Assembly: GCA_051362555.1 (NCBI GenBank)
Contig: CM120646.1
Location: 16,120,001-16,184,000 of the forward strand
DNA: 64,000 bases
DNA from: Lingula anatina
Lineage: Eukaryota > Animalia > Brachiopoda
Reading direction: 5' to 3'
Of the stretch, positions 2,862-56,414 are shown one piece after another. Every line of letters begins with the position of its first letter. Position 1 is the stretch's first letter. The notes under the pieces are model-generated. The model searched no databases and was not told where the DNA came from. It worked only from the letters and a program-made list of their open reading frames with translations. The position numbers were made by a program, and so were the translations under genes.

Positions 2862-2937
2862 ATGGGGAAAGGACTTCTTTGGCGTTTTACAGTTGGAAGC
2901 ATGGTGCTGCTGGGGAGCATTTTGTCGACTTTGGCAG
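2862..2937 (+). CDS. Gene A exon 1, signal peptide MGKGLLWRFTVGSMVLLGSILSTLA
   Basis: ATG in a CpG-rich region, hydrophobic leader, strong donor CAG|GTAAGT. Phase 1 matches the exon at 27775; linkage across 24.8 kb is inferred. Confidence 0.75.
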
Positions 2938-25500: not shown

Positions 25501-28500
25501 TAAAGAGACTTAGATGTCTGTCATGCCTACTCAAGCTGCAAGGGGGGGGGGGGGGAGGGGTTATTATTTAATAATTAAATAATTATTGTTAAGCAGCTTT
25601 GGTAGGCGTGCCAGACATATAAGCCACTTAAGCTGAAAGCAATTTAGCGAGAAACCCCTTGGAAATAGATCGATCTTGTTAGATCTAGTTATGGGAACCT
25701 AGTCTAAAAGGGTCCACGCTTCCAGAAAAAGAAATCCTGTAAAATTGCAGGCCTGTAGCGTGAGGGTTGCCAACACTCCACATCACCTAATGAGCATTTT
25801 GACAACTAGTCAGGATCGATTCCCCTTGTTTTCAGGTGTTAATAACACATAAAACAATAAATCAGCTCATTTTGAGTACTTTGGCAACTTGGGCAACACC
25901 ATGCATATTAGTATTTTAATATGGGGATCAGAATAGCACTTTGGAGGCTAGGGTAGGGTAGTCTTGAGATGCACTGATTCATTTCTCTGACTACAAATGA
26001 CCCATGCAACAGTGAAAACTGTCAAGTTAAATTGCCTGAAATGCATTTCACCTATGTTTCGTATGTGACCTTTTTAACACTGTTGGGTAGCTGCTGCTAT
26101 TTTTGTCGAACTGGCATGATAAATTTTGCTACTTCTGTGCACTATTCACAGGAAAAGTGTTTATGGGTTCTTCCACAGGAATATCTGCCTCTGTAGCATA
26201 TTTCCCTTCCTTTGTGTATAATATAAACTTAATGCCTCATATCTTTTTGAAAAAGAAGGAGAATAATTTTTTCTTGGTCAATATTAGTAGAAAAAAGGTG
26301 CAAGATATTTATTAATTAATTTATTTAAATAAAACATTCATTTGTAAGGTCTTTGTTAGATTGTATTGTGATTAAAAATTATTTTCACGATCACCTATGG
26401 CTTTAACATTCATAACCTACCTCCTTTCCATATAAGTACCTTTCTGGTGAAATTTGTTTTAAATGAGTGAAATTTGATTAGAGATATGCCTGGCTCATCG
26501 TGGGAAAAAAAGACCTGATAAGGATGAAACATGTGAAAGATTTCCACTGACGATTCTTTTTATGATGTTCTCAGATTGCTAAAAGATTTGTTTGAGACAG
26601 CTGGCTCTTTGGCCTCATAGATAGCATTTCTAGTGGGTGAGGAGTGATTCTTGTGTTTGATTTTTTTTTTTTTTTTACCCTAATGAAAAGAAAGTTAAGT
26701 CTTGAATATAAAGATAATATACATGTAGTGAAAATTCTTCTTTAATTCAATTCTTGTGTAAATACAGTATAATTTAGGAGAGGAAAGGAAAAATCACAAA
26801 CTACATATATAATGCATTTCAGTAGAGAGCAGAATTCTAACATTTTAAATTCACATGATCTTGATGTGAAGAGAATTTAAGGGCAGGTGTCAAGTCGAAA
26901 GATGATGGAATAGAAAAAAGGCTAAATCAAATACCACAGACTCTTTTTCTGGAGAAAAACAAACTTGGACAGGCACACTTATAGTGACAGCTTGACTGAG
27001 CTTTCAAAGATGAGACTAGTAAATGTTTAGTCTGCCAATTAGCACCCTGCTTGTCTCCATCCTCTGTAGATGATACCATGGTCTCATGCAAACTCATTAT
27101 AATACTTGCATACACATTAAATTGAAACAAAGTAATATTTTGACAGAAATTCCTGAAAACCTATTTTTTTGCAAACTTTTTGAAAGAAGGATTGAATTCA
27201 TACCACAATTCATATTGGTTTGGTGGAAATAGTACAAATAGAGAGATTATGTATATACTCATAGTGCAAATTTAAATGTGATTCAATTACAGATATAAGA
27301 CATGAAAAGATGCTTTCACTACCATTATTTATGTAAAATAGAAATATTAGGCTTTAAAAGATACATATTCGTAGTACTGATTTGTATGTTAATTGGAGAT
27401 AATGGGCATTTAAAAAAATATATATATATGTGTGTGTGTGTGTGTGCGTGTGCGTGCTCTTTTGGAATAAGTTGGTTTAGATTTATGTGGGATTGTCGTA
27501 AGCCCTAATGAAAACGGTTTTGACAGACTGACGAAGAATGCTTTGCCAGTACAATGTTAACCTAATATTTTGTTTCCTTCCAAATTGCTTTCATGTCCTG
27601 TTCGATCCCTCGTTTGTTTCTTCATGAGTTGGTGACATTCACATGTAGGTAGTGACGGGAAAGGTCATTTTTGACAGAAAAAAAATGATATAATCTCAAT
27701 GACTACTTAGATATTTTGAAATCTAAATTAATCAATTGATATACAACTTTAATCTTTGTAAAATTCGGTTTCAGAATCTCCAGCACAAGAAGTTGCAGTA
27801 GAATTGGGTGATGATGTGCAGCTCAACTGTTCCTTTCCAGTTACTGAAGGTGGTAAGTTGTGGTGGTGGCTGGGGGGATAAGTATTGCAATTTACTTGAT
27901 TTTATGTTATTACTATAAGTGCGCATGCATGATATGGTATTCCCCATGCATATGCGTATTCACATACAAGAAGGGTAAAAACTGGCTTTGAACAGTCCAT
28001 CTCTTGAGAAAGCTTTTATTGGTGGTTTAGAAAACCCCTCTGGTATTGAATGTTAACAAAAAACACTTGGGTGTAAATCATGTTTGAAGCTTTACGTATG
28101 CTTATTTGTGAAGTCCGATCTTATTAGAGTTTTAAGGTAATCGGATCAGGTGCACAGTCATAGTGCAAGCATATGGAACCTTTTGAGAATTTGCATGTTT
28201 TAAGGTGTACATATGAAAACCACAGTTTGCATTGGGTGGGCCTTCACTGGTCTAGAAATAAAGAAAATTATCAATAGGTGGTACATTAACATGTGACATT
28301 TATTACTTTTTAATTAAGTCAGAGAACTTGTATGTCCCCCCCTCTTTGTGAAAACAAGAATGATTGACTGATGCATGTAGATTTTAATATATTTCATAAA
28401 ATTTAATTATATAATAATAATAAAGTTGCCTTATTTTGCTCACCTATTGTATAGTCTTTTTCTTTATAATCTAGTGATTCCTAGCTTGAACTGGCAGAAA

Positions 28501-31500
28501 CAACCAAAGATTATCTATGTAAAGGAGATAGCAGTTCATACAGACTCAAGAATATCTCTAGCAGGTAAGGATGTTGTCTGGGACAATCTTTGTAAAAGTT
28601 GATATTCAAAAAACTTTCTTAGACTACAGTTATGTTGGTCCCACAATAAGTGTGTGTGAGATAGCTCTCTATATATAATTGTACCACCAGCGTTAGCGCT
28701 GGCGGTACACATGGTTTCGGTCCCGTCCGGATCGTTCCGCCGGCTCCGCCGGACGGCTACCGTTACCGCTTCTCCTCCTAGACGGTAAGGGCCCCCGTAC
28801 CCATCTCATGGATTTAGGTCACCTATAATCTCAACTCGTTCCACGTAAAATTTGGCCTTTGTCGGTATTGGGGTCTGGGTGTGGCACTCATTACAATGCA
28901 CCCTTGTCTAAAAATGGCAAAATTAAATGCTAATTATCTACCCTACGGAAGGAGTTATGGGAAAAATTTCTATAGACGGCTTTCCAAAAGTCATATGTGT
29001 AGATTTCAAATATACCCTTGGATTTGACCTTTGACCTTTACTTCAAGGTCAAATGGGCCAAAATTTTCAAAAAAATGAAATTTTTTACGAAAAAAAATTT
29101 TTTTGCCCTGTTATTCAGACACTACACAGACTTAACCAATAATATTATTGGAAAGTGTTACCCTTCAGGTCATCTTTCATCTCCATGAATTTGGAGTCAA
29201 TCGGTGCATTTTCACGGGAGTAGCGGCCATAAGATACCGAAACTGAAAACTGTCTCTAATTCGGGAACCGTTAATGCTAGAGACCCATTCTTTTTTGCAT
29301 TTTGTAGAGCATGTAAAGCCCAACACTGAAGGTGGTCTCGGTTTTTTTGTATTCCATACGGTTTTCGAGTAACGCTGTATCAAAAAGTACATATTGGTGG
29401 TAAAAGCAAAATGTGCAGTACGGTAATGGATAATAAATTTTGAACTCTGGAAAAATAAAATATAAGGCTTGGCAAAGCAGACAACTTGTGTTCAAAAATG
29501 ACATTATTTCATCAAATTTGAACTTCTGAAACTTCAGAGCACCTCCTATTTCAAGAATTTTGACCAAAATAACATTTTCTTTATTTTAATTAATTTTTTC
29601 TGTACGAAATTTAAGGCACATTATGGTAACTCCAAAATTATAACATTTAGTCCCTTATATCTCCAAAACTGGCAGAGATAGGTCCATAGTTACTATTGAA
29701 GTTGAATAGGAAGTCATATACTGGCTATCTTTCTGTGACCTTAAAATTGACCTTTGACCTACTTTTCACCATGAACTGAACTTTGCAAATTTTGCTTCCC
29801 TTTTATCTCCAAAACTGGCTGAGATAGGTCCGTAGTTACTATTGAACTTGAATAGAAAGTCATATACTGGCAATCTAAATGTGACCTTGAAATTGACCTT
29901 TGACCTACTTTTCACCATGAATTGAACTTTGCAAATTTTGCTTTCCTTTTATCTCCAAAACTGGCAGAGATAGGTCCGTAGTTACTATTGAACTTGAATA
30001 GGAAGTCATATACAGGCAATCTATATGTGACCTTAAAGTTGACATTTGACCTACTTTTCACCATGAATTGAACTTTGCAAATTTTGCTTTCCTTTTATCT
30101 CCAAAACTGGCTGAGATAGGTCCGTAGTTACTATTGAACTTGAATAGGAAGTCATATACTGGCAATCTATATGTGACCTTAAAATTGACCTTTGACCTAC
30201 TTTTCACCATGAACTGAACTTTGCAAATTTTGCTTCCCTTTTATCTCCAAAACTGGCAGAGATAGGTCCATAGTTACTATTGAACTTGAATAGGAAGTCA
30301 TATACTGGCAATCTATATGTGACCTTAAAGTTGACCTTTGACCTACTTTTCACCATGAACTGAACTTTGCAAATTTTGCTTCCCTTTTATCTCCAAAACT
30401 GGCAGAGATAGGTCCATAGTTACTATTGAACTTGAATAGGAAGTCATATACTGGCAATCTAATTGTGATCTTAAAATTGACCTTTGACCTACTTTTCACC
30501 ATGAACTGAACTTTGCAAATTTTGCTTCCCTTTTATCTCCAAAACTGGCAGAGATAGGTCCGTAGTTACTATTGAACTTGAATAGAAAGTCATATACTGG
30601 CAATCTAAATGTGACCTTGAAAATTACCTTTGACCTACTTTTCACCATGAACTGAACTTTGCAAATTTTGCTTTCCTTTTATCTCCAAAACTGGCAGAGA
30701 TAGGTCCGTAGTTACTATTGAACTTGAATAGGAAGTCATATACTGGCAATCTATATGTGACCTTAAAATTGACCTTTGACCTACTTTTCACCATGAATTG
30801 AACTTTGCAAATTTTGCTTTCCTTTTATCTCCAAAACTGGCAGAGATAGGTCCATAGTTACTATTGAACTTGAATAGGAAGTCATATACTGGCAATCTAA
30901 ATGTGACCTTAAAATTGACCTTTGACCTACTTTACACCATGAACTGAATTTTGCAAATTTTGCTTTTCTTTTATCTCCAAAACTGGCTGAGATAGGTCCA
31001 TAGTTACTATTGAACTTGAATAGAAAGTCATATACTGGCAATCTAAATGTGACCTTGAAATTGACCTTTGACCTACTTTTCACCATAAATTGAACTTTGC
31101 AAATTTTGCTTTCCTTTTATCTCCAAAACTGGCAGAGAGAGGTCCGTAGTTACTATTGAACTTGAATAGGAAGTCATATACTGGCAATCTATATGTGACC
31201 TTAAAATTGACCTTTGACCTACTTTTCACCATGAATTGAACTTTGCAAATTTTGCTTTCCTTTTATCTCCAAAACTGGCAGAGATAGGTCCATAGTTACT
31301 ATTGAACTTGAATAGGAAGTCATATACTGGCAATCTATATGTGACCTTAAAATTGACTTTTGACCTACTTTTCACCATGAACTGAACTTTGCAAATTTTG
31401 CTTTCCTTTTATCTCCAAAACTGGCAGAGATAGGTCCGTAGTTACTATTGAACTTGAATAGGAAGTCATATACTGGCAATCTATATGTGACCTTAAAATT

Positions 31501-34500
31501 GACCTTTGACCTACTTTTCACCATGAACTGAACTTTGCAAATTTTGCTTCCCTTTTATCTCCAAAACTGGCAGAGATAGGTCCATAGTTACTATTGAACT
31601 TGAATAGGAAGTCATATACTGGCAATCTAAATGTGACCTTAAAATTGACCTTTGACCTACTTTACACCATGAACTGAATTTTGCAAATTTTGCTTTTCTT
31701 TTATCTCCAAAACTGGCTGAGATAGGTCCGTAGTTACTATTGAACTTGAATAGAAAGTCATATACTGGCAATCTAAATGTGACCTTAAAATTGACCTTTA
31801 ACCTACTTTTCACCATAAACTGAACTTTGCAAATTTTGCTTCCCTTTTATCTCCAAAACAGGCAGAGATAGGTCCATAGTTAATATTGAACTTGAATAGG
31901 AAGTCATATACTGGCAATCTAAATGTGACCTTAAAATTGACCTTTGACCTACTTTTCACCATGAACTGAACTTTGCAAATTTTGCTTTCCTTTTGTCTCC
32001 AAAACTGGCAGAGATAGGTCCATAGTTACTCTTGAACTTGAATAGGAAGTCATATACTGGCAATTTACTGTGACCTTGAAATTGACCCTTGACCTATCTT
32101 ACGAAGAACTTAAATTTGATTGTACCATATATATTTTTTGCAAAAGTTTAAAAATTCTTGTTGATTGCATTTTTACAGCTTGTCAAGCACAAAACTGGTG
32201 GCTGTGTCCCTTATTTTGTGTATGTGGGGGTCTATACGAATGCGCTTGCTCCAGCTGGTGGTACAATATTCGGAGGCGGTATCGCCTCTCTGATCCTCTA
32301 GTTTACTTTATTTTTAAAAATCTTATAATATTTTTTAAAACCCAGGCTCCCATACTTACCATTGGTTAATGAATCCATTTTTACATATACAGTTAGTCCC
32401 CCCTTTTTTTTTTTTTTTTTTTAAATAATCTCTTAAGAGATTATAACAGAGTATAGCCATCAGTGGAGGTCGCGTGGTCTAAAGACAAGCTCAGATATCA
32501 GAATAATAGCTATAACTGCCATTTTTGTGGTAAAGCAGAATATATTATATTTCTATGAGTTGTTCACAATGTTTTTATTGTGAAATATAGATCTTATACA
32601 AAGAGTTATTATCCCTTTAATGGTTTTCATGCAAGAAGTTGAAAAAAATATCCAGTCAAAAGTTAGAAGTGCTCACCTGACAGCTTTAACCCCCAGCAAC
32701 ACCATAGATTGCTGAGGGTGCTGCCATCTATTGATCATAACTGACATTACACTACTGCCTTCTTTTGGTCATAAACAGACTGCTAAACACAATTAAAGAA
32801 AGATGAAAAATACATAAAGTACATTGGCCAATATTTTGTCAGTGTTTTGACCCATATTTTTGTCGAAGGCAAATCTTGTTAATGTTATCCTTTCTTTCAG
32901 CTGATATTCCGAATGGTGTATACAATCTTGTGATCAGTGGCACTCAGTTGAGTGATAGTGGGACCTATGCGTGTGTCAACCAGGAAGGAGATGCAGAGGA
33001 AAAATTGTTCAGTTTGAAGGTTCAGTGTATGTATGGCATGGGCCATTTGGCACATATGTAGCTTGACTGTTATTGTGTATTGTGAAATCTTCACCTAGTT
33101 TTTAGATTTTTGTAGATCCAATCTGATGCTTATAGGTTTGGGAAGGACAAATTTTTGGGATAAAAAAATAATTAAAGTCTTTTTGGTATTGCTGTAATAA
33201 TAAACTATATATATTTCCCTTCGAGTTCAGAAAATTAATAATTGCATGTGTATTTTTAGTGAGGCCAACCATTGAACATTTTCCCGAAGCCCCAGTTACC
33301 AAAGTGGTTGGAGACGGCATCTCCCTAGCGTGCAATGCCTCTGGCATCCCCTCACCCACAATCACATGGAGGAAGGGGGTATGTTTATGTTCAGTCACTA
33401 AGGGCTCATTATCAATAAAACTGTCTATTTTTTGTTCTATGTAGAATGATCCATCTCCCTGGGACACTTGCTGAATGCAATCAGATTATCAAGCGGTATA
33501 TCATTATACAATTTGTATTGATACACTTTGAGAAGTTGAGGACCATAAAACTTACCTATTGTGTTGGAGAGTCCTTAAACAGGATTTGTCATGTGCAGTG
33601 TAATCTGGTAGTAATCTTTCATTCTTGGTTTTTTGTGAGATGTTTAAAGGGACTTTAATTAAGGAGTAGAGTTCTCCTTTTCACTTATTGATCTTTAGCA
33701 TTCTTTGTCCCTGTTCTCCCATTTCTTTAACAGTACTCTATCACTCATTATGAACTACACATAATTGACAGATATTAACCTTTAAGGAATCTTTAACCCA
33801 ATAGTAAATACTCTATATATCCCCGTCTTCTATATTTAAGGGTACCACCATTCCATCCCATGTGATATTTAGTCAGGATGGACAGATACTGACCATAGAA
33901 GAGGCAACGGAGACTGATAGTGGCAGCTATGAGTGTACTGCAGCCAATGGTGTCGGTTTCCCAGCTGTTAAGACTGTCATTGTCAATGTCCAGTGTAAGT
34001 TTGAATATGAACTGTCCTTAAAATTATTAATGCCCAACAGGCCTGTAGCCAACATGTTGAAAAGGGGCATCTTTTCTTGAAAAAGTGGACCTTTTTACTT
34101 CCTTAGTAGACCCAACTTAAGAGAACCTGGATCAACTTTTGATTCATAGTGGACCATTTCAGGCCAAAAGGGCAGTTCTTTTGAACCCTCTCCCCCTCCC
34201 TACAGGCCTGTCCAGTGTAAACTATTCTGCACTGTCCTTAAAGATTGCTATATGTCCAGTACAAGTTATTCTGAATTGACTTTTAATATTTCAGTTTGCC
34301 TAGTAGTGTAAGCTACATGTATATACACTCTTCTGTCATTGAAAATTGTTAGCATACTCATGCTGCTGCATTGATCCAAGTATAACATCCTTATTCACCA
34401 GCCCTTGTTGGGGTATATAATTTTGTCATTATTGAAATAGAAAAAGAAATTGCAGATGATCCATTTCAGGGCCTGGCTGAAGCCGCCGTAGTATTATAAT

Positions 34501-36424
34501 TAGTAGTAGAGTGGCCTTTTCTATGTGCATTTTTATGTCTATATCTTTTACAGTTCCACCAGAGATAGTGTTTATCAACAAGTCTCAGGTGCACACAGGG
34601 ACAACGAGACCCCTGCTTCTGCAGTGTGGAACCAAAGGGTCACCTGTGCCGGGTGAGCGAACAACACTATGACCTCTTTCACTCTGATATGATATGATAT
34701 TAAGATTCTAGCTCTTTGTTTAAAGAGTCATTTCAACTAAGCAAATAAATATCAGTTGAAGATTACTATGGCATTTTTTTCTCTATATTCAAACAGAACT
34801 GGTTAGTTGTTTTCACCAATACAACAATATCTACAGCAGATGATTTGAAATTTCCCATAGTGAGATGGGGCTATGTCAAAAATCGTGTTTTACATAAGGT
34901 AGATTACTATCATGAAAATTTTAAAAACATGGGGACGATTTTGAAAATGGATAATCAGAGTATGTTTTTGAGACCCAGCATCATATAATTTTACAGAAAT
35001 AAAATGGCACCTCCATGGTGAAAGCATTCCCACCCATTTTCAAGTAGACACAGCTAATGTTAACCAGCAGTACCTGTCCACACTTCGAGTGGAGTCTCTG
35101 CGGGGAACAGATCTCGGGGAGTACAAGTGTACAGCCAAGAATGCCTTGGGAGAGGCTGAGGCAATTGTAATTGTGACAGGTTTGTGGGGAAGAAATAGTA
35201 TTTTGTGCTTCATAATGTACTGACTTTTAATGAAAAGAAAAGAAACATTGTTAAGGGCATTTAATTTTAAATGCTTATAACATATGGAAATTCTTCAAAT
35301 GTTGAATTTTGGATAAGACAGTTTAGAAGTCAAGTTTTCAATATGGCAATTTAAGGGCTGTCATAGTGTTAGACATAGTCCAATTGCTTGAGGAATTTGA
35401 GCCTTAATGAAAACATTTTATTATTTTAGACAGTTTTCTTTTTCATTGAATTCATGATAGATTAAGCATCTTGATACTTATATTCAGGAGAACCAGAGAA
35501 TGTGACTATTACCAGTAACCCAGAGGGTCCCTTCTCTAATGAGTTTACATTGACATGGACTATAAAAGAATATGAACCAACTATTGAATATAAACTCAAA
35601 CTTAGGACAGTAAGTTTAAAGCCACTTTTTTCAGATGTACAATGAAAACTTTTTTATTTGCATAACAGTGAAGATTTACAAAGAGTGCTTTGATTTTGTT
35701 TGTTTATTTGTAAAATAAATGTATATTTATTTCCTTTAGATATTTATGATGATATTGAGATTTCAAGCAACTTAATTTGATTTGACCATCTGTCAAATAA
35801 AACATAAGTAATGTGTTATTTATTTGTATAACAGACCTAGTGTTCTCATTTTGAATGATATACTACCAATTTATCTTTCATTCAAATTCTATCAGTATGT
35901 CTCCCTGCCCACAGTGTGCCTCCTGTGGATCACCATGCACAACCACCTGTCATCCGAACTGTATAAGATACTGTATTAAATCTTACTGCAGTACATGTAC
36001 ACGTTTTGCAGACTATTTTGATTGAATTAGTTAAGTGTTTGTGTGTGTGTGTGTATTTGTATGTATATGTATGTGTGTGTGTAACCATTCTTTTATTGTG
36101 TTTTTCCTTTCCAGGTAAATGGTACAGAGGCAGGCCCCTGGGTGAATAGCTCCATCCCTGCCAAGTCTGAAGAGGGCTCCATTGAGCAGCAGCAGTCCTT
36201 CACCCTGGAGGGTTTAGAGCCCCTGATGGTGTACCAGGTGGAACTGGTAGCCAGGAATAAGTTCGGTGAAAGTGGAGTTGTGGAATTTACTTTTAAAACA
36301 GCAGAAGGTATATAAGGATGTTGTAGCCAGTTGAAGACGGTCTGATATGGAAGCATGAGCGTTCTGCACTCTCTCTCTCTCTCTCTCTCTTTTTCTCTCT
36401 CTCATTCTCTCTCTCACTCTCTTT

Positions 36425-36470
<46 letters not shown>

Positions 36471-39400
36471 AAGGGGTTTGAAGGCCTAAAAATTGCAGTA
36501 ATTTGCATGCACAGTCAAATGCAGTTGCATGCACACATATGTACACAGAAAGGTTTGTAGTCCTTATATTTTAATTAACAGGATACGAAGTCGAGGTCAA
36601 AATGGGATGTTGTACACAAAATCAGAGGACACACTATTGAAAGAAGGGAGGGAAATACTTTCTTGGTCATAACTCTGTGAGGTATAATTATAATTACTTC
36701 TGTGTGTTTCAACCTTCTCAAAAATTACTTTGATTCACAGCTGGCAAAGTCCGTCCTTCAACCACAATGTCAACAACAACGACAACAACAATGCCACCAC
36801 CAACTACAACAACAGAGATGTTACAGGGAAGCGGCTCGGGGAAGGAGGACACCAACCGTAAGTATAATTGGCTAGCATTTGAATTGAGTGTGTTCTTATG
36901 ATAGAGTAGCCTTTATGAAAAGTAGTAGTTGTAGAAATGACTTAGTTGTAGAAATAATTGCATGTTTTTGTAATATATGATGCTAAATACTAAAGATGAG
37001 TAGATAAATGATTACTTGATAGTGGTAGCATGGCTTGGTATTTATGTACAATTTTCCTTCTTTAGTCCCCAACTCCTTTATTCTCCTGTCTTTTCGTTGT
37101 GGAGTCAGCATTAGTTATATACAGATCTCACACAGAGGAGGCACTACAGTCACTTACGACTGAGAAATGACACAACATTGTTGTTGTTTCAAATTTTTAT
37201 AATGGGAATTTTTAGGGTGTGCTGTTTTCAGTAGAGAAAACCATAGCATCCAGGAATAAGAGGTCAAACCCCAACACAACTACTGTAACAGTAATTACTT
37301 CTGCCTATCTTTTCTTTCAGCTGTTATCTTGTGTGATTTCTTCACTATCTCTCTAGATTTCTGAAATCTTCTGTCTTGACATGTTTTCTTTAGTGTATAG
37401 TAATAGTACTAACATTACTGTCCAAAGTAGCTGGGAATATGAACTGTGGGGCTCGGGAGAGGTTGAAGGTAGGTGGTTTGCTTTATCAGTAGTTTTCCAT
37501 CTCAACTTCAGATCAAACTTTTCTTCTTGACCTTGTCTCCTTTTGGGGTATAATATAACACTTATATGTATCATTTCACTCTTAGCTTTTATTCTGTATT
37601 CTTTAGTTGATTTCTTTTCTGTTTTTCTATATTTTTGTTTAGTTTATTCTTCATGTGTCCCTCTCTTTCCTGTAACTCTGTAGCATGTTTTCTTAAATAC
37701 TCTCTTAGCATCAGGGGAGATAGATAATATGACTTTACCAGAGATCTCATCTGGAGAGGCAGAGGGAGACACCGTACCCACTTTAGTTTATGTAAAAGGT
37801 AGGGACTCTCTTACTCACAGGAAGAATTGTCCATTTCAGAAACATGAGCATGTAAGGGTAGAAAAGTATCTTTTGTTTTATTAATTTACTTTGAAAACAT
37901 AGATAAAACTGGTATATTCTTACAGAAAAGTGGTTATATTCTTAACTGATAACAATGAAACACATATGCCAGTCTGAAGTAACTGGAACACTGATTAAAG
38001 CATTTTGAGGTCTACTTCTATAATCTGAAAAGGCAATTAGGGCAATAATTAGATGGAAATGCTCCTGTTTTTTACACTTTCCTTTTCTAATATCAGCCTC
38101 TTTTCATACATCTAAAATGGATCAAAATTCCTTTTTTCCTAAGGTCAGATTTGAGATGAACAAAATCATCATATGTAACTGTTATAACCCTATGTGTATA
38201 ATGCCCTATCCTGATGTGTCTTGCAATTAATACATTGAAACAGACCCTTGGATCTAGGTCTGGGGTTTTTAAGAATCATCCTTTAAAGAAGGGTAAAAGG
38301 GGCCATGCCTTTTAGAAGAATCACCCTTTGCCTGTCAGGTAGATTGTAAAAATTAATTCAGGATGTATAATGAACAAAAATGTCTTCTTTGTTATAAAGA
38401 TAGTTTTGTTCTAAACAATCCTTAAATATCATTTTTTGTTCATCTTCTACTGTTACTAATTGCATGATTTTTATTTTAAAAATTAAGAAAAATAAAGAAA
38501 AAGTTGTCTTTGTTTAGTGTTAATACTCTCATTTACCTCTGTCTTAGTTTGTATTTTCCAAAGTTTAGTTGGAACTAATTTCTCTGTGAACAATTTTCTT
38601 AACCTCCATGAAATTGTTTAAGATTTGTCTGGTAGGCAATGTGTTATGTGAACAGTTGCGTACAGCGTGTCCTTTAAAATGGAAGAATTTTTTCTTCTAA
38701 GAAAAAGAAGAGAAATGCACCAGCCAAGATGGCACAAAGTTAATCAACTGAAAAGTTATAGAACTTATTATTTGTGAATTCTGAGAAGTATGAATAAAAT
38801 AGATTGAGTGATTACATGGGAAATTGTCCAATAAAATATGATCTCGTGTTTTGTCTTGGCTTAAGTTGCTATTGTTATTAAGTTGATGGAGGGTAGTAAA
38901 AGTCTCTTTTAAGTTATGAAAACAAAATAGTACTACTGTTAAAAAATCAATTTTTTTGTTGAAAATTTTGGTATAAAGTAGCAACCAGATAATGTTTTTA
39001 AACAAAAGATTGGAGGTTTCTTTTTAGGTTCTGTCTATTCTTTCTTTCTTTCTTTCTTTCTTCTAACCTGTAACTTGTAGAGTTTGCTGAAGTAGCTAAC
39101 ACAACAAACATGGGCGAGGAAATAATACCAGTGACAAAGTTAGAAGGTGAGGACTTCCAATTTAGATCACACTAGCATATTTTTCAGTTAAATAACTGGT
39201 TTTCCACCAAGTTGATGACTTGGGAATTGAAGATATTATTGTAATTTTCATTGTCCTCAAGTAAGTGCATACAATCAAACTGGGACATTGTATTTTTACC
39301 AAATACTAGTTTGTTTGAAATTGGATATCAATTATGATTTTGAGAAGTGTTTTCAGTTATGTTTGACTTTTTTAACAAAACTTACCTTGTGAGCCCAGAT

Positions 39401-42121
39401 TATTCCCTAGACATTTAGCAAACAATATGTGCTGGAGAGCATCTAGCCAGGGGCCTGTTTTACAAGAGAATAAATTTTTTTCTTAAATTTTGAGACCAAA
39501 TGTGTGTACCTTCATGTCCAGAACAACTAGGTCTGTATTAGTCCATTGAATAATAACTACTATTAGTCTTTAAGTATTTTCTTACATTTTGGGGAACAAG
39601 CCCCAAGAAGTAAACTACTCCTGATTTTTTCTCTGACACTATACACCTTAATTTACATTTTGAGACCTATATTTCTTCAACATAAATGAAATAAGATCTA
39701 AAAGTGGCTTTAAGGGACCATTCCCAGACCCTCTCATACTAACTGTCGATCGATCTCCGAGGGGATTCTCGATAAATTGCAGTGAACTTACTGAAGCTGC
39801 TAGGGGGTAATTCATTATCGTTTAACCGATTCAGTAAGCCTCTTAAGCTGAAAGCAATTTAAGAAACCCTTGGATAGGGATCGATCCTGTTAGATCAATG
39901 TAGGTATGGGAACCCTGTCTAAGTCTGATACATGTATGAGACACCATGCCAGCAGCTAAAAGTCCAAGCATCACACAGTGGAGAAATTGATCCAATGCAA
40001 CTTGGTTTTTGCTGACATTTTAATTAGACAACTATTTGTTTTCTTTTATGTGTGTGATATGTTTGAAAGCAATCATTTATTAACAGAAATGGTAGTAAAT
40101 ATTTAGACGCATAACCTTCAAAATATGTTTGGGTCACTTGGTTAAGAATAATAACAGAACTAATAGTGTGTTAGGGGTGTAATAATGTGAAAACAACTGA
40201 TAGAATGCATGTCTATACTGCAAAATATATATTACCTAATTCAAGCATGTTGATTTTAAAATTAAATTTCTTAGAACCCAACTCAACAGCTAGTGAGCCA
40301 GGGGCTAGTACACCAGGTGGAGCCACTAAGATGACACCAGAGGGCACCACTATGGTACCCTTGACTTGTAAGTGCATGACAGGACCATCCAAAGGTTTTG
40401 TGTGCATGAAGGGCATTATTGGTGCATTTTATAGGTTTATGATGTTAGCATGGTTGTTGATGCTCACTGTCCGTCACAACTGTTTCCAAATTTTATGATT
40501 TCATCTGTGTTGAAAACCATTGTACATTAACCTAAATACATGTGGAAACTCTTTGAGGGGTTAGAACTCTTCTTTTTTGGTTGGGGTCCTAGATACCTCT
40601 TAGAAATCTGGAGAGCTGGTTTTTAATGCCTGGGAGAATTATCAAGACTCATCAAAGGGTCCACATTTTAACCTCAAATTGCTTGGTAGATGAAATCATA
40701 ACAAGAAAGAACCGTTGTTGAAGTTACATGTCACCAGGAGAATGGGGCTTCAGTTTTATCATTGCATTTTCACATAGCTGTAAGGATGAGTGTGAATTTG
40801 TATGGCTTGTTTTTAAATTTTTCTTTTTTTCCAGCAAAGTTACCTGTCTGATCTGATGAATCTCAATTGTGTTGATTTCAGATGGGTTTTCCAGTACTGA
40901 GGACATACAAAATACTACAGGTTTTATTGAATAGTATTTTTAATGCTTTGCTTTTTGTGTATAACCACATACAAAGGTGTCACTGATATTTCTTATTTTG
41001 AAATTGAGTTGGTAAAATATGTTGTAGAGGGAAGGGCTAGACTTCAGGGATGTGATTTGTCTGGGGATTTTCCTGACTTCAGGGGATTTCATTCTTTTAT
41101 AACCAATATATTTTATATAGTTCAGGTGAGGAGTATCAGTAGACATTTTTAACATGAAAAACAAAGGGCTTTCAGTATGCTTAAACTTTCAGCTTCAGAA
41201 ACAAAATCTTATGCAGTTTCAGCTTTCTGGTGTTATTTTTCCTTTGAAGCTCTTTTCATTCTTAATAAAAAGCATGTCATTCTTGTCACAAATCTGAAAA
41301 TATGTGCTTATAATATATAATTAACATAGTAATTTTGTATCAATAATGTTTTTCATTTTCATTCAAATTTTATTGTGATTTATTTATTCTGAAACTTACA
41401 GATGCCAGTCTGTTTATGTTGGGATGGTACGCTTTTATACCTCTGATGATTCTCTGCATCTTTGAGCCGTTTTCTCTCAGAGCTTCTGATAGATGTATAC
41501 TTCTTACTGCTGGCAGTGAAAATTGAATGCCTTACCCCAGCTTATAAAAGACATGCCCCTTTTTAAACCTTTCTTATAGTCCCAGTGCAAAACACTTGCT
41601 TCCTACTCATAATATGGCAGTTTTACACATTAGATTTTTTTTCCCTTATCCACTGGTTTTTTTCATATAATACAGGTTGAAGCAGGGGAAATAAGCTATT
41701 TTGACCATTGAAGGCCTTTATGGCATATCAGATGTTACAGTGTTAATCAAAAGAAAAAAAAATTGCTCAACAAATTATTCTCATATATTTTTCTGCCAGC
41801 TGAAGCTAAATAAATGTATCATTGATGCCAATTATTTTACATGTTAATAATTAGGGGTAGATATTTTTTATTAATTATTTTCTTATTTCATCAGATGGTT
41901 GCATAAATTTAAAAGAAAAAATCTGGGTACATTTTGGAATAATATCAAACTAGATAGTTCTATTGTTATCACATAATATGATTGTCATTATTATTATAAT
42001 TATTATTATTTCAGCCACCCCCAAGGAGCCTGGAAAAGTAAGAGATGTGGCTTCTTCGAAAATTGCCTCCATTTCCATCACCATAGTGACTGTCACCCTA
42101 GCAACGCTATTGTTCTCATAA
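2862..42121 (+). CDS. Gene A: Klingon/Wrapper-like (IgLON-related) cell-adhesion protein, SP + 3 Ig + FN3 + Ser/Thr stalk + GPI signal, ~570 aa, 15 coding exons
   Basis: Exons 2862-2937, 27775-27852, 28475-28564, 32901-33026, 33260-33378, 33841-33994, 34554-34652, 34997-35179, 35488-35609, 36115-36307, 36741-36857, 37709-37798, 39081-39146, 40275-40367, 42015-42121. All are GT-AG with compatible phases and join into a 1713-nt ORF. Ig motifs: VQLNC..LNW..DSGTYAC; ISLAC..ITW..DSGSYEC; LLLQC..IKW..DLGEYKC. FN3 motif: TLTW..Y..LEPLMVYQVELVARN. 3Ig+FN3+GPI is the Drosophila Klingon/Wrapper architecture. Confidence 0.88.
3476..3601. mobile_element. Short MITE remnant with GTCCGAA repeats
   Basis: GGGGCGT..GATAGTCCGAA / TTCGGACTATTG..ACACCCC imperfect TIR; internal TTCATTGGTCCGAA repeats. 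Confidence 0.55.
11456..11683 (-). mobile_element. MITE family 1 copy (inverted)
   Basis: Reverse complement aligns with 25011-25226 and 540-720. Confidence 0.75.
11962..12650. mobile_element. ~690-bp MITE with 14-bp perfect TIR, Harbinger-like
   Basis: AGCCCGCCGCACAC (11962) / GTGTGCGGCGGGCT (12637-12650); follows TTA; CpG-rich. Confidence 0.75.
15328..15479. mobile_element. Small MITE, 18-bp perfect inverted termini
   Basis: CGCATTCAGAACAGTGGA / TCCACTGTTCTGAATGCG. Confidence 0.65.
17417..17700. mobile_element. CMC/EnSpm-like MITE (CCC termini, 2-bp TSD)
   Basis: CCCGCAC(G/A)AA TIR, GT duplicated on both flanks, internal GCAGTAG/GAAGCA repeats. Confidence 0.65.
25011..25226 (+). mobile_element. 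MITE family 1 copy
   Basis: TTCCCAGAG..AGATCGATCTA / TAGATCGATCT..CTCTGGAAA ends; shared core with 540-720. Confidence 0.75.
25442..25705 (+). mobile_element. MITE family 1 related subfamily
   Basis: AGGGACCATTCCCAG ... ATGGGAACC.AGTCTAA; closely matches 39712-39921. Confidence 0.65.
27775..27852 (+). CDS. Gene A exon 2, Ig1 N-part (ESPAQEVAVELGDDVQLNCSFPVTEG)
   Basis: tttcag acceptor, gtaagt donor, G.DVQLNC B-strand motif. Confidence 0.9.
28475..28564 (+). CDS. Gene A exon 3, Ig1 middle (VIPSLNWQKQPKIIYVKEIAVHTDSRISLA)
   Basis: ctag/gtaagg boundaries, C-strand Trp, D.R.S motif, phase 1-1. Confidence 0.88.
28679..32303 (+). mobile_element. Non-autonomous Helentron-type element (HINE/DINE-1-like) with central tandem array, in gene A intron 3
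   Basis: 5' subTIR TTGTACCACCAGC (28679) with an adjacent inverted copy GCTGGCGGTACA, then a GTCC-like low-complexity tract. 3' subTIR GCTGGTGGTACAA (32254-32266), hairpin GAGGCG-gtat-CGCCTC (32273-32288), CTAGTT end. Confidence 0.85.
29655..32096. repeat. Tandem array of 146-bp monomers, ~16.7 copies
   Basis: CTCCAAAAC recurs every 146 nt from 29661 to 31997 (17 starts); monomers are highly similar. Confidence 0.97.
32435..32620 (-). mobile_element. Truncated second copy of the Kolobok-like MITE
   Basis: Reverse complement of ~59790-59975, ending AAGAGTTATTATCCCTTTAA. Confidence 0.7.
32901..33026 (+). CDS. Gene A exon 4, Ig1 C-part (YNLVISGTQLSDSGTYAC)
   Basis: tttcag/gtatgt boundaries, D.G.Y.C motif. 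Confidence 0.93.
33260..33378 (+). CDS. Gene A exon 5, Ig2 N-half (ISLACNASGIPSPTITW)
   Basis: I-set C.A.G.P.P.I.W motif; tttag/gtatgt. Confidence 0.93.
33841..33994 (+). CDS. Gene A exon 6, Ig2 C-half (LTIEEATETDSGSYECTAANGVG)
   Basis: Phase 0 acceptor taag, donor gtaagt, D.G.Y.C.A.N motif. Confidence 0.93.
34038..34210. mobile_element. MITE with CAGGCCTGTAG termini (hAT-like)
   Basis: CAGGCCTGTAG / CTACAGGCCTG 11-bp TIR; TSD not recognisable. Confidence 0.55.
34554..34652 (+). CDS. Gene A exon 7, Ig3 N-part (FPPEIVF...LLLQCGTKGSPVP)
   Basis: tacag/gtgagc boundaries, in frame. Confidence 0.9.
34997..35179 (+). CDS. Gene A exon 8, Ig3 C-part (IKWHL...STLRV...DLGEYKCTAKNALG)
   Basis: ttacag/gtttgt boundaries, Ig motifs. 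Confidence 0.92.
35488..35609 (+). CDS. Gene A exon 9, FN3 N-half (EPENVTITS...FTLTW...IEYKLKLR)
   Basis: ttcag/gtaagt boundaries, FN3 Trp and Tyr. Confidence 0.9.
36115..36307 (+). CDS. Gene A exon 10, FN3 C-half (FTLEGLEPLMVYQVELVARNKFGES)
   Basis: Classic FN3 L.P...Y...V.A.N..G.S motif; ccag/gtatat. Confidence 0.92.
36369..36470. repeat. (CT)n/(CA)n microsatellite
   Basis: Direct inspection. Confidence 0.95.
36741..36857 (+). CDS. Gene A exon 11, Thr-rich mucin-like stalk (STTTTTTMPPPTTTTEMLQGSGSGKEDTN)
   Basis: cacag/gtaagt boundaries, phase 1-1. Confidence 0.88.
37232..37356 (+). CDS. Gene A putative alternative terminal exon T1 (LEKTIASRNKRSNPNTTTVTVITSAYLFFQLLSCVISSLSL*)
   Basis: ttttcag acceptor, phase-1 frame open to TAG with a hydrophobic C-terminus. 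No transcript evidence. Confidence 0.4.
37709..37798 (+). CDS. Gene A stalk cassette exon (PSGEIDNMTLPEISSGEAEGDTVPTLVYVK)
   Basis: ctcttag/gtaggg boundaries, 90 nt, phase 1-1, acidic with SG motifs. Confidence 0.65.
39081..39146 (+). CDS. Gene A stalk cassette exon (EFAEVANTTNMGEEIIPVTKLE)
   Basis: Long pyrimidine tract and ctaac branch point, tgtag/gtgagg boundaries, 66 nt, phase 1-1. Confidence 0.7.
39712..39921 (+). mobile_element. MITE family 1 related subfamily
   Basis: Same termini and TTAAGCTGAAAGCAATTTA block as 25442-25705. Confidence 0.65.
40275..40367 (+). CDS. Gene A stalk exon (EPNSTASEPGASTPGGATKMTPEGTTMVPLT)
   Basis: cttag/gtaagt boundaries, 93 nt, phase 1-1, S/T/P-rich. 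Confidence 0.8.
41402..41526 (+). CDS. Gene A putative alternative terminal exon T2, transmembrane-like (YASLFMLGWYAFIPLMILCIFEPFSLRASDRCILLTAGSEN*)
   Basis: ttacag acceptor after a T-rich tract; the phase-1 frame gives a ~20-aa hydrophobic segment and a short tail. Confidence 0.5.
42015..42121 (+). CDS. Gene A terminal exon T3, GPI-signal-like (STPKEPGKVRDVASSKIASISITIVTVTLATLLFS*)
   Basis: tttcag acceptor, small-residue omega region then hydrophobic end, followed by a long U-rich 3'UTR. Confidence 0.85.
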
Positions 42122-44756
42122 CTTATGGCCTTTGTATCAGTTGCTAAGCAACATTACATAACCTTTTAGATAAATACAAAAACTTTGCTGCACTAAAGAT
42201 AAACTGCATATTCTTGGGGAAAGTATGTTAATGTAGAAATGAATATCTTCACCATCAAAACTTAACACTGATTGCGTATCCTGCAATGGGAGATCCATTT
42301 TTTTAATCCTCGCACACTGTAAAATCTGATATTCATTAAATTTTTTCTCTGCATTTATTTATTTATTATTTTAAATACTTAATTTGATGTCTTAAGTCTG
42401 TTATTATTTTATTTATTTTATTCTATTTTATTTTTTTTGAGGGGGGATAACTTACAGGAGTCAGTTGATCAGAATTATCAGCTCTGTTGCTGAAGAACCA
42501 TTTCAGCAAAGAGATTTAATGATTAAACTAACTTGTTACTCTATTTATAAGAATGGTCAATTTAGGAAAGGTGGAAAAGGCTTTACTGCAGGCCCCTTGC
42601 ACAGTTGAAGTTCAGCATTAGCTATAGCAGGTTTAGTAGAATCATTAGGTTTTTGCATATTTAGTTTATGTATGTATTATGTTACTGTGACTTCCCATGC
42701 CTTGTTTTGTTTTTGTTGTGGTTTTGATGAATTTAGTACACAAAATTAACATTTTTTCAGTTTGATTATATTGTAATTTTTGTACTGCAGAAAATGTGGT
42801 TGTAAGGATGACAAATTGGTTCATCTAGAAGCTTATGCATTGTCAAAGTGATCAGCGTTTTGTTGCCTAATGTAGATTTCTCAAATAGTTTTTTTAATTG
42901 ATGGTATTACTGCAGCAGTATATATGACTCAGTAGCATCTTAAGCACTTGATCAGTGAAAGGAAGTTTACCCACAAAGTGTATATTGTGTACATCTTCCT
43001 TAATTGTAAATTAATAGCATGACTGCAGCAGTACATATGGCATCATAATAATTTTAGTATTTTGTTTGAGAAAGAAGGCCGAATCCTAGCCATTTTCCCC
43101 TCATAATGTTTGTTCATCTCCTTTCTGTTTTATATTTCATTAAGCTCTGAAAATCACTTCTTAATAAAAGTAGAAATGACAGGAACTTAGCCCAGGTTTT
43201 AAAAGTGTGGTTATGTAACTTCATTATAAAAAATAACCTGCCCTGAAAGGTGCTGGTGCTATGCTTTTCATGTAGATAATATATGGGCTGAGCAAGATCT
43301 TTTTTAATTTGCACACAAGCTGATGTTTTCCACTTGTCTGCTGTCCCTGTGCAACATTTTTTTCAAATTTTGGTTAATTTGCATTCACTTTAAGTTAGAA
43401 GATGTTATCTGTTCTAACATAGCCAAAATGAAGTTCATGATAAATTTTTGTCTTTTTATCTTGTGATTTAGCTTGATATTGCTCCTTGAAGTGTTTTTAG
43501 TCATGACTTTGAAGTTATTTTTAAATATATTTCAAGATCTTGTTTCACTTTTTTTTGTAAAGTGATTTGTTTTGCAATAAGCATGCTTAAAGTAAGCTTG
43601 TTACTTAAGTGTATAGGAAAAAGTAATTATTACGTTCACTCAAGGCTTGTGGTAACATATTAAATTCAAACTTTTTTTTTGTTCTATTTTTTGTTATTCT
43701 ATTGTAGTTAACTTGAGTTAAAGGTTTTTTATTTTTATTTTATTTATTTATTTTACGAAGATGTGCAGCTTTGTGGTGGTATTGTGCTTCATGTTTGAAA
43801 AGATGGACTTAATGTCAACGATTTTAGAAACACTTCAAATGCCATGACATGGATAGATAGATAAATTTTTCTACTACTACTATTACTTGCAGTAAAAGTA
43901 GTACTTGTTCTCAAGGGCAGACTGCAGTCTTAAAGCCTGGGAGAGGTTATTTTGTGTTTACATTTTATCTTTAAAACGTTTTATATAATTATTATTGTTA
44001 ATTTTTTACTTCGTCTTTATTACACAGTTTTAATCCCTGTATGTATGGCATAAGTTGATGCATTACCAAATGGGTCTCGCGTGCACTCTCAAGCAGAACC
44101 TGTTCTCCTTATTTCCGTCAAAGATTTGCTCAGTTTCTTGTTCTTGTCGCCTAGATGATGTATACAGCTGTGACATACTCTCTGTGAGGGTATACACTGT
44201 AGTTTTGATTGAAGCTGTTTAACTGTTTTATGCTTATCATCTATGTTTGCAGTCTATAGAGGAATGAGGTTTTTTCCACTTACAGGGGAGAGAAGGGAGT
44301 TAAAATCTAGTTGAGTAAGCAGTTAAAATTATTATACAGACACACTATGTCTGTATATATTTTGATCTTTATCTGTCATTGCCGTCTGACACATCTGTTG
44401 TTCAGTAAAAAGGCAGGTTCCTTTTTAAAATTGACGTGATAATTTTTTTTAAACTGAAGCTCTTCATTTCTTCCATGTATCTTGGCAATGTTTTGCTTAA
44501 TGATATTAAGTGTCTGTACATTTGCCAGCTTTGCTGTCTAGATAAAAAACAATCTGCCTTCAAAACATGCCATTTATATTTTATATGTGTAAGGTTGTAA
44601 GTGGCCATTAATTTCCTTTTCAATTGTTCCCTTGTATGATTTATTGGTAACTAACTTACATTGCATTTTAGAAAACGCCTTGTTATAGGTTGAAGTGAAC
44701 CTCATTGCTTTATTGAGACATTTGATATCTGCTTTATGTACTGTAAACCTTTTTAT

Positions 44757-44762
44757 AATAAA
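44757..44762 (+). terminator. Candidate polyadenylation signal (AATAAA) of gene A
   Basis: AATAAA at the end of a T-rich ~2.6-kb tract, where strand bias switches to A-rich. Confidence 0.45.
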
Positions 44763-45946
44763 TGGTTTTGAACTTATAAAGTTAGACTTTTTACACTCAA
44801 AAATTGCAAAAAAAAAAAAAAGTATGCTGCTACTTTTAGCTTATTCCTAAATGGAAAAAAATGTTTTTATCTTACATATGAATCATTTTATTTCTGAATC
44901 CATGTTAAACCATACATTATTAACTACAGAGTGCTAAAAGATCTATTCTTAAAAAATACCATGCCTCTGTCTGCTGTCTTTTATTTTACAATAGAACTTG
45001 TGACAAAATCCTCAAAGATTCCCGTAACACGGGTGAATAACTATCCTTACGATGATTCAAGAAAATGCATTTTGAACTGCATCATGGCTACACGCCAAAA
45101 TGCTCTTGAGGGCCACCTTACAAGTTTCTCCAACTTGGCTAAACCTAGCCCAAATCACTTAATAGGCATTTCAGCAACCAAAAAGAAAAATTGGTAGCAA
45201 TAAACCTCCTCCACAATAAATGGCTATGGATAAAGCATCTAGCTAAAAGCAATAATCAAGTCCTAGTTTGAATCGAGTTATGCGCTGGAGTTTCCAAGGT
45301 TACCAGTCATCAAACTAAAATTCAAAGTTTACGACTTTTACCTGAGGAAGTTTCTTACTTTTTAAAAAAGTGTAAATAGTCACTAACAGTTAAAAGCTAA
45401 CTAACGCCATTAATTTTAAATTTCTTTGATTGTAAAAATATACATTCTCTAGATGTAGACATTCGAGTATAAAGATACATAATACTTTATGTACAGTGAA
45501 TACATAGCAACATTATTTTTACTTGTTCATGTATAATTTTTCTATAAAAAACTGTGTAAAATATGTATACCATTGCTATGCAGTCTAAAAATTAATATGT
45601 ACATTTTTTTTTCTGGGCAGACATGCTTCTGGCTACATGAACCTTAAACTGATGATATCAGTATGACACGAAGAGATTAAAGGATTTATGAGCTTGTTGT
45701 CACAGGCAAAAGTAATAATCAAAATTTTCTTTTATAGCTAGTTCCCCTTCCATAAAAGATGAACTAGCATCATAAAATAGTTAACCATTACAAAGTGAAC
45801 TTGGGACAAGCGTCATATGATTCAATGACATGCCAAAACCAAATCAAAAAACTATAAATCAATGCGTTCATCGAACCTTTTTAAGCACCCAGTCCAGTGA
45901 GAATTTTGTAAAAAATTCCAAAGAAGTGGTAATATATATATACATA

Positions 45947-46170
45947 CTGACAGTCAATGAAAACGCATCATTTATTTATCAAATAATATTTTAAGTTCCT
46001 TAAGCACATATGGAAAAAAAAAAACAATTTTCGTGTGAAATATGAAATAGTGGTCAGCCCACTCTCTTATGACCAAACAAATGCATTTGTACTCGTTTGT
46101 ATATGGTTGGAATCGATTCTCGGTAAAAAAAGTACAAGAAAGTTTTCTGATGCATTTTCATTGACTGTCA

Positions 46171-47111: not shown

Positions 47112-47221
47112 CTATGAAAGGCTCCAGAATAATAGCAGCAAAAGCAGTGATACAAAACCACTGAGTGTTGTGGCTCCACTCACAGCCCCTGCTATCTGAT
47201 CAGGTTGCGCTGTATTTGTCT
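47112..47221 (-). CDS. Gene C exon 8, GPI signal
   Basis: ETNTAQPDQIAGAVSGATTLSGFVSLLLLLLFWSLS*. Confidence 0.88.
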
Positions 47222-49961: not shown

Positions 49962-50031
<70 letters not shown>

Positions 50032-56204: not shown

Positions 56205-56341
56205 TCACTCATATCTGACAAGACAGACGGCTGCAGTCAACACCAAAATAATAGAAATGGCAGAAGGGAGATTGATTTCACATCCTGACCTGATACTTGG
56301 TCCTAAATTGGGACAGGCAGGCCCCTGACATTCATCAGATT
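56205..56341 (-). CDS. Gene B exon 8, Cys motif + GPI-like tail
   Basis: ESDECQGPACPNLGPSIRSGCEINLPSAISIILVLTAAVCLVRYE*. Confidence 0.88.
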
Positions 56342-56414
56342 CTGAAATCAATGATTTAAAGAAGTCACATATCTGCCCAGCTCTATCTCTGGAATCGCAT
56401 ATCATTCCATTATT

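What the first reader, a model, noticed from the sequence alone, without database searches (positions are those of the whole stretch)
36741..42121. Modular stalk-and-anchor splicing system in a Klingon/Wrapper-like adhesion gene
Seen: after the FN3 domain come four symmetric phase-1 exons (117, 90, 66, 93 nt), so any can be skipped in frame. Three separate phase-1 acceptors each open onto a hydrophobic C-terminus and a stop: T1 37232-37356 (GPI-like), T2 41402-41526 (~20-aa TM-like segment plus short tail) and T3 42015-42121 (GPI-like). Known: NCAM and Fasciclin II switch between GPI and TM isoforms through alternative last exons, whereas Klingon/Wrapper/IgLONs are normally GPI-only. Inference: one ectodomain may be displayed at tunable heights with GPI, transmembrane or shed anchoring, a combinatorial system I do not know to be described for this family in deuterostome invertebrates.
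Basis: partly seen in the sequence, partly recalled or inferred. Interest (0 to 1): 0.8.

Follow-up and report, generated by a model that had tools for sequence, protein, structure and literature searches.

The report
Brachiopod adhesion protein with spliced stalk
A brachiopod cell-surface adhesion gene has six short in-frame stalk exons that RNA reads show are included or skipped, which likely changes the protein's height and its number of predicted sugar-chain sites, while the two proposed alternative membrane anchors were not seen in the reads.

Summary
The gene is Lingula anatina (brachiopod, a protostome, not a deuterostome) XP_013389209.1: signal peptide, three Ig, one FN3, Ser/Thr/Glu-rich stalk, GPI-type tail, IgLON/DIP (Wirin)-like by fold. 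Skipping is shown: run X4 splices exon S1 both to 37394 (4 reads) and to 40882 (6 reads); X1 and X2 have no sense-strand depth in the S2, S3 or S4 bins. The stalk runs from about 39 to 161 residues, and predicted Ser-Gly/acidic glycosaminoglycan sites from 2 to 5. The anchor switch is unsupported: no junction into T1 or T2 reached the listing threshold in four runs, against 33, 39, 18 and 0 upstream junction reads; RefSeq uses T3 only. T2-like ORFs arise by chance in 35% of simulated introns, T1-like in 13%. T1 stays open; T2 is probably intron. Closest precedents: CADM1 stalk exons 8/9/10 and CD44v3. Verdict: real stalk splicing of a known kind, new for this gene; the three-anchor system is not supported.

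The parts
2862..2937 (+). First coding exon (signal peptide); followed by a 24.8-kb intron
   Evidence: First 25 residues of XP_013389209.1 map here
27775..36307 (+). Nine core exons: V-type Ig, two I-set Ig, one FN3 (27775-27852, 28475-28564, 32901-33026, 33260-33378, 33841-33994, 34554-34652, 34997-35179, 35488-35609, 36115-36307)
   Evidence: One open frame with six Cys; exact match to P0162; Pfam V-set, I-set, fn3; four upstream junctions listed in RNA
36741..36857 (+). Stalk exon S1, 117 nt, Thr/Pro-rich with two Ser-Gly sites; not seen skipped
   Evidence: Junction 36307->36741: 33, 18, 39, 0 reads in X1, X4, X2, X6; in RefSeq
37232..37356 (+). T1: candidate alternative GPI-type last exon with an RNKR motif; unconfirmed
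   Evidence: ORF present; no junction listed; not in RefSeq; chance 13%; codon score between intron and exon
37394..37468 (+).
   Evidence: Junction 36857->37394, 4 reads in X4; in RefSeq; motifs
37709..37798 (+). Stalk cassette exon S2, 90 nt, two Ser-Gly sites
   Evidence: 6 reads at 37773 in X4, 0 in X1, X2, X6; in RefSeq
39081..39146 (+). Stalk cassette exon S3, 66 nt
   Evidence: Junction 39146->40275, 6 reads in X4; in RefSeq
40275..40367 (+). Stalk cassette exon S4, 93 nt, Thr/Pro-rich
   Evidence: Same junction; in RefSeq
40882..40920 (+).
   Evidence: Junction 36857->40882 skipping S1b-S4, 6 reads in X4, shorter side 39 nt; in RefSeq
41402..41526 (+). T2: hydrophobic ORF after a good AG; probably intron sequence
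   Evidence: ORF present; no junction listed; not in RefSeq; chance 35%; intron-like codon score
42015..42121 (+). T3: the used last coding exon, GPI-type signal; 3' UTR continues to about 44700
   Evidence: Sense depth 16.7, 16.6, 24.6, 2.9 in bin 42041-42260; UTR depth to 44675; C-terminus of RefSeq protein

Best explanation
This Lingula anatina gene encodes a three-Ig, one-FN3 adhesion protein, likely of the Wirin (IgLON/DIP/Klingon) family and predicted to be GPI-anchored through its one used last exon T3, whose stalk is lengthened or shortened by skipping in-frame cassette exons, which likely tunes its reach from the membrane and its predicted glycan load. Shown: six symmetric phase-1 stalk exons; two different junctions out of S1 in one sample; absence of the middle exons from two other samples; T3 expressed. 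Inferred from depth only: the direct S1-to-T3 junction (masked by the tool). Predicted: a disordered, O-glycosylated stalk of about 39 to 161 residues; 2 Ser-Gly/acidic glycosaminoglycan sites in the short form and 5 in the long form; effects on adhesion distance or protease access as in CADM1. T2 is likely intron sequence; T1 is at most a minor or tissue-restricted exon.
For:: X4 has 36857->37394 (4 reads) and 36857->40882 (6 reads), both GT..AG, and 39146->40275 (6). X1 and X2 have 33 and 39 reads on the upstream junction, sense depth 15-25 in the S1 and T3 bins and 0 in the S2, S3 and S4 bins. X5 and X7 have depth in the S2, S3 and S4 bins where X1 has 0. RefSeq protein has all six stalk exons plus T3, no T1 or T2; all six stalk exons and T3 score exon-like (+0.09 to +0.40; background median -0.16); 5 Ser-Gly sites, each with at least 2 acidic residues within 6, P 0.00075 in 20,000 shuffles; 3 of 5 lie in S1b/S2; no regular structure over most of residues 411-595; best 8 Foldseek rows are IgLONs; best 12 VIA-align rows are IgLONs or DIPs (Z 18.4, rmsd 3.0, 264 aligned for NEGR1), NCAM1/2 at Z 14.3-14.6.
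Against: Read numbers are small (about 6 in 100 of each run read; 4-6 reads per stalk junction, all from X4). Junctions into 42015 were masked (3 joints dropped at repeats), and S1b->S2 and S4->S5 were not listed, so the full six-exon form rests on RefSeq. Tissues are unknown; the X1/X2 versus X4/X5/X7 difference follows study and could reflect library type or population. T1 or T2 use below roughly 7-18% (X1, X2) or 15-31% (X4) is not excluded, nor use in unsampled tissue. T1 and T2 acceptors score inside the range of real ones (5.4 and 8.0; real 2.7-8.6 leave-one-out). Ig1 alone listed no IgLON or DIP among its best 60 PDB sequence hits. The FN3 and stalk of the model have pLDDT under 50, so it does not prove disorder. 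Ser-Gly motifs alone do not prove a chain is attached (PMC8418075).
Confidence: 0.75

Rival explanations
1. Stalk splicing plus a real second GPI-type last exon T1, used at low level or in unsampled tissue; its RNKR motif would let a furin-type protease release the ectodomain.
For: T1 has a polar half and a hydrophobic end like T3; only T1 and T3 meet that shape among 28 acceptors in 36858-42224, and 0 of 56 in intron 1. First 60 nt are 45% A, 13% T against 38-41% T in nearby introns; first 18 codons beat 91% of background. X1 and X2 have depth 0.95 and 1.76 in bin 37201-37420; X1 and X4 reads stop near 38307.
Against: No 36857->37232 junction listed in 4 runs; not in RefSeq; reads also lie upstream of the T1 acceptor and similar depth occurs in other intron bins; 13% chance by simulation with post hoc criteria; similarity to T3 not significant (192 of 2000 shuffles); no AATAAA before 38491.
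Confidence: 0.22
2. One reading: T1, T2 and T3 are all regulated last exons giving GPI, transmembrane and shed forms on a variable stalk.
For: T2 has a strong acceptor (8.0), a 19-residue hydrophobic stretch and a 20-residue tail; X1 has about 4 reads' worth of depth in 41381-41820 and an AATAAA lies at 41809. NCAM and Fasciclin II do this (10.64898/2026.03.13.710942).
Against: No junction into 41402 listed; T2 is 39% T like flanking intron, codon score at the background median (55% higher); 35% chance; three more hydrophobic AG-led ORFs lie within 200 nt downstream (41481, 41580, 41586); the tail begins Glu-Pro with no basic cluster; X4 depth 0.05 in that bin.
Confidence: 0.06
3. Stalk variation is tolerated splicing noise or allele/population difference in a fast-evolving linker, without regulated function.
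For: Stalk junctions come from one run; X4 also has 5 unspliced reads at 36878 and patchy intron coverage; no relative could be compared; sample differences follow study.
Against: X1 and X2 skip the middle exons almost completely while X4 includes them in roughly a third to a half of reads (upper bounds); all five cassettes keep frame; Ser-Gly/acidic sites are enriched. All internal stalk exons being phase 1 is also the usual phase of Ig-family genes (recalled), so symmetry alone is weak evidence either way.
Confidence: 0.2

Closest known systems
Wirin family (IgLONs, DIPs, Dprs, Klingon, Wrapper, Lachesin); PMC6525511 passages, PMC10084454 passages, PMC10863630 passages
   Same: V-type plus two I-set Ig in register with IgLON/DIP, hydrophobic C-terminus without a cytoplasmic domain; the paper reports Wirin subfamilies in brachiopods; neighbour gene is annotated neurotrimin and aligns in register at 29% identity.
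   Different: Has an FN3 domain and a stalk of up to 161 residues from six exons; no such cassette stalk turned up for a Wirin in my searches. Orthology to Klingon/Wrapper untested.
CADM1/SynCAM1/Necl-2 stalk exons 8/9/10; PMC5385562 passages
   Same: Three-Ig adhesion protein whose membrane-proximal stalk is built from small alternative exons, one of them Thr-rich; works as a stalk-length and glycan switch.
   Different: CADM1 is transmembrane, has three cassettes, and the effect on ADAM17 shedding was shown by experiment; here the anchor is predicted GPI, there are five cassettes and function is untested.
CD44 exon v3; PMC2199889 abstract
   Same: An alternatively spliced stalk exon adds glycosaminoglycan attachment.
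   Different: CD44 is not an Ig protein; here the sites are motif predictions and the short form still has two.
NCAM / Fasciclin II and Drosophila Elff (CG33543); 10.64898/2026.03.13.710942 passages
   Different: NCAM/Fas II have 5 Ig + 2 FN3; no anchor switch was seen here; fold search ranks IgLON/DIP above NCAM.

Membership tests
Wirin (IgLON/DIP/Klingon/Lachesin) | N-terminal V-type Ig plus two further Ig domains in register with IgLON/DIP | tested here: met
   Pfam V-set 30-122 and I-set; IgLONs and DIPs match residues about 22-312 as one stretch; top 12 VIA-align rows IgLON/DIP. The model was folded with two neurotrimin-like rows, which may favour this.
Wirin (IgLON/DIP/Klingon/Lachesin) | Ig1 closest to Wirin Ig1 by sequence | tested here: inconclusive
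   Ig1 alone: weak generic V-set hits, no IgLON or DIP among the best 60 of 535 shown
Wirin (IgLON/DIP/Klingon/Lachesin) | Hydrophobic C-terminus, no cytoplasmic domain (GPI signal) | tested here: met
   T3 ends in a 19-residue stretch of KD 2.05 with no tail; expressed. Actual GPI attachment not testable; predictors are unreliable for this family (PMC10863630).
Wirin (IgLON/DIP/Klingon/Lachesin) | Falls inside the Wirin clade in a phylogeny (the family's definition in PMC6525511) | not tested
Klingon/Wrapper subfamily | 3 Ig + 1 FN3 + GPI layout (Klingon layout recalled, not from a call) | tested here: met
   but Elff of the NCAM group has the same layout, so it does not decide membership
NCAM / Fasciclin II | Five Ig plus two FN3 domains | tested here: not met
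   Three Ig, one FN3
NCAM / Fasciclin II | GPI versus transmembrane isoforms by alternative splicing | tested here: inconclusive
   No T1/T2 junction listed in 4 shallowly read runs; low-level or tissue-restricted use not excluded
CADM1-type spliced stalk | Small in-frame exons between the last folded domain and the anchor, variably included | tested here: met
CADM1-type spliced stalk | Isoform sets shedding or adhesion properties | not testable with these tools
   Needs expression and shedding assays
Cell-surface proteoglycan (splice-dependent, CD44v3-like) | Ser-Gly sites with nearby acidic cluster | tested here: met
   5 of 5 sites, shuffle P 0.00075; motif definition from PMC8418075
Cell-surface proteoglycan (splice-dependent, CD44v3-like) | Glycosaminoglycan chain actually attached | not testable with these tools
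   Needs lyase digestion or glycoproteomics

The most novel reading that the evidence does not exclude
A lophotrochozoan Wirin is a splice-tuned proteoglycan: five cassette exons set a stalk of 39 to 161 residues and 2 to 5 glycosaminoglycan sites by tissue or stage (the S1b-S2 join itself creates an E-A-S-G site matching the stringent C. elegans motif), and a second last exon T1 carrying an RNKR cleavage motif yields a released form. That would give an IgLON-type recognition head an adjustable reach, glycan coat and release route from one gene.
Probability: 0.15. Interest if true: 0.55.

Novelty: new member of a known kind. Interest (0 to 1): 0.3.

Why it matters
RefSeq lists one isoform for this gene, so the skipping shown here is unannotated in the protein collection searched. 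It extends the CADM1/CD44-type spliced stalk to a GPI-type, Wirin-like protein in a brachiopod and gives a compact test case of whether stalk length or glycosaminoglycan load tunes IgLON-type adhesion. The more striking claim, a GPI/transmembrane/shed switch in this family, is not supported, which removes most of the surprise.

Tried and rejected
No whole genome is held for the window, and no eukaryote genome collection is available, so T1/T2 conservation could not be tested. No RNA holder was listed by index; 9 same-species raw-read runs were offered, 6 were laid (X1, X2, X4, X5, X6, X7), X3, X8, X9 were not. One search covered a repeat-rich intron that swamped the joint table (15 shown, 115 hidden), so X5 and X7 give depth only. 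FN3 exon search: 0 hits among 28 candidates, explained by the cluster representative being a 199-aa partial copy; it also suggests, weakly, that no separately clustered isoform with this exon is in the collection. HMMER with the Ig3 half exon gave only multi-Ig proteins at 27-45% identity. Metagenome scan: 333 pattern matches, none confirmed. Rfam 34000-46000: 0 matches. Repeat search showed no long intronic pairing or exon duplication in 36300-42300. T1 as a duplicate of T3: 192 of 2000 shuffles score as high, rejected. My first acceptor comparison made T1 look weaker than all real acceptors; leave-one-out scoring removed that, so it is not used against T1. The codon test is biased against hydrophobic exons (true signal exon scored -0.24), so it is weak evidence against T2. 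The apparent CG..TA joint 34649->34994 is likely the GT..AG intron 34653-34996 shifted by an allele. Papers naming this accession or a Lingula/brachiopod Klingon, IgLON or Lachesin: 0. Earlier scan findings: none. NetGPI and DeepTMHMM are not available here.

Full report
Identity. A neighbouring exon matched neurotrimin of Lingula anatina at 99%; an Ig-half profile of this gene found a 199-aa Lingula protein whose cluster of 2 holds XP_013389209.1, 608 aa, named neural cell adhesion molecule 1. All 16 exon translations from 27775 to 42121 match it exactly, and its first 25 residues map to 2862. Pfam gives V-set, three I-set stretches and one fn3. An AlphaFold2 model (mean pLDDT 51, Ig part mostly 60-89) matches IgLONs in the best 8 Foldseek rows and IgLONs or DIPs in the best 12 VIA-align rows, NCAM lower. 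Ig1 alone by sequence was uninformative and no tree was built, so 'Wirin-like' is likely and 'Klingon ortholog' is untested; Drosophila Elff shares the layout.

Observation. The four stalk exons and the three terminal ORFs are at the stated coordinates and in frame. RNA junctions revealed two more symmetric phase-1 exons, S1b 37394-37468 and S5 40882-40920, both in RefSeq. The stalk is thus S1, S1b, S2, S3, S4, S5: 161 residues, 19% Thr, 12% Glu, 11% Ser. After the FN3 core there are 74 residues with S1 alone, 87 with S1+S5 and 195 with all six, GPI signal included.

Stalk splicing. laid X1, X4, X2, X6 on 36101-42700 (about 6 in 100 of each run). Four joints were listed: 36307->36741 (33, 18, 39, 0 reads), 36857->37394 (X4, 4), 36857->40882 (X4, 6; marked 'between: not known', shorter side 39 nt, the length of S5) and 39146->40275 (X4, 6). 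One sample therefore uses two acceptors for the S1 donor, one of which skips four exons. X1 and X2 show sense depth 15.2 and 20.8 in the S1 bin, 16.7 and 24.6 in the T3 bin and 0 in the S2, S3 and S4 bins, so a direct S1-T3 form is inferred; the junction itself lies at a repeat the tool masked (41975-42015; 3 joints dropped). X6 barely expresses the gene. In one search, X5 and X7 had depth in the S2, S3 and S4 bins (1.18, 1.35, 1.25; 0.45, 0.97, 0.88) where X1 had 0; their joints were hidden by truncation. Tissues are unknown and the pattern follows study, so 'differs between samples' is shown and 'tissue-regulated' is not.

Anchors. T3 is expressed, with a UTR to about 44700. No joint into 37232 or 41402 reached the threshold of 3 reads from 2 starts; neither acceptor is near a tandem repeat, so masking is unlikely. 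The 95% upper bounds are 9%, 7%, 15% (X1, X2, X4) if there were no reads and 18%, 15%, 31% if two were hidden. Depth over T1 (0.95, 2.88, 1.76, 0) and T2 (1.2, 0.05, 0, 0) is like that in other intron bins. T-rich introns readily encode hydrophobic peptides: 5 of 7 hydrophobic ORFs behind good acceptors in this gene's introns are neither T1 nor T2. In 300 Markov simulations a T2-like ORF arose in 35%, a T1-like one in 13%, both in 7.7%; intron 1 has 2 and 0 among 56 acceptors (criteria fitted after seeing T1 and T2). T2 has intron-like base and codon composition. T1 is different: polar A/C-rich first half, hydrophobic end, RNKR motif (furin consensus recalled), codon score above 79% of background. 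I put T1 at about 0.25 as a real minor exon and T2 at about 0.1. RefSeq carries neither and names no isoforms.

Mechanism. The likely product is a GPI-anchored, IgLON-like head on an extended glycosylated spacer whose length is set by splicing. The stalk has five Ser-Gly sites, each with two or more acidic residues within six positions (P 0.00075 against composition shuffles), the usual glycosaminoglycan acceptor context; such motifs are not proof of occupancy (PMC8418075 passages). Two sites are in S1 and three in S1b/S2, so skipping would cut them from five to two; the S1b-S2 join forms E-A-S-G, the stringent C. elegans motif quoted in that paper. Every cassette from S1b to S5 also has an N-glycan sequon. 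These functional steps are predictions.

Comparison. CADM1 builds six variants from stalk exons 8/9/10, and exon choice with O-glycans sets ADAM17 shedding (PMC5385562 passages); ALCAM is a similar case (PMC5816644, search listing only); CD44v3 adds heparan sulfate by splicing (PMC2199889 abstract). IgLONs are shed by ADAM10 and a secreted CEPU isoform is cited (PMC10606101 passages). NCAM and Fasciclin II make GPI and transmembrane isoforms (10.64898/2026.03.13.710942 passages). Dprs, DIPs and Klingon are GPI-anchored and hard to tell from transmembrane by prediction (PMC10863630 passages). Wirins include brachiopod members (PMC6525511 passages; 7 supplement files searched without this accession; tree datasets not held as text could list it). 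My searches found no report of a cassette stalk in a Wirin or of this gene; the library lacks most subscription papers.

Verdict. Interest 0.3.

Noticed in passing
window 36858-38307: X4 has continuous depth of about 3 from the S1 donor to about 38300 (5 unspliced reads at 36878), and X1 and X4 reads both stop near 38307 with no AATAAA nearby. Read-through of S1 would end in a stop at 36899-36901 after a short hydrophobic tail, a possible secreted form. Could be retained intron, an intronic 3' end or a haplotype difference.
   Followed up: partly
window 47110-51710, minus strand: Convergent three-Ig gene with a GPI-type tail; RNA supports introns 47222-47656 and 46922-47112, the latter just after the stop codon in the 3' UTR. 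Its 3' UTR meets this gene's near 44700.
   Followed up: partly
window 56208-62668, minus strand: Three-Ig gene matching Lingula neurotrimin XP_013389206.1 / XP_013389202.1; with the two genes above it forms a local cluster of three IgLON-like genes.
   Followed up: partly
window 29653-32096: Tandem array of a 146-bp unit, 16.7 copies, 95% matches, inside a repeat of about 28680-32620 in intron 3 that draws hundreds-fold, strand-biased RNA depth, probably from copies elsewhere.
   Followed up: no
window 2938-27774: First intron of 24.8 kb after the signal-peptide exon, against 0.3-4.3 kb for the others.
   Followed up: no
P0159 (XP_013387630.1): A 199-aa partial copy identical to this protein over its first 163 residues, on a different, 143-kb contig; likely an uncollapsed haplotype or a truncated duplicate.
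   Followed up: no
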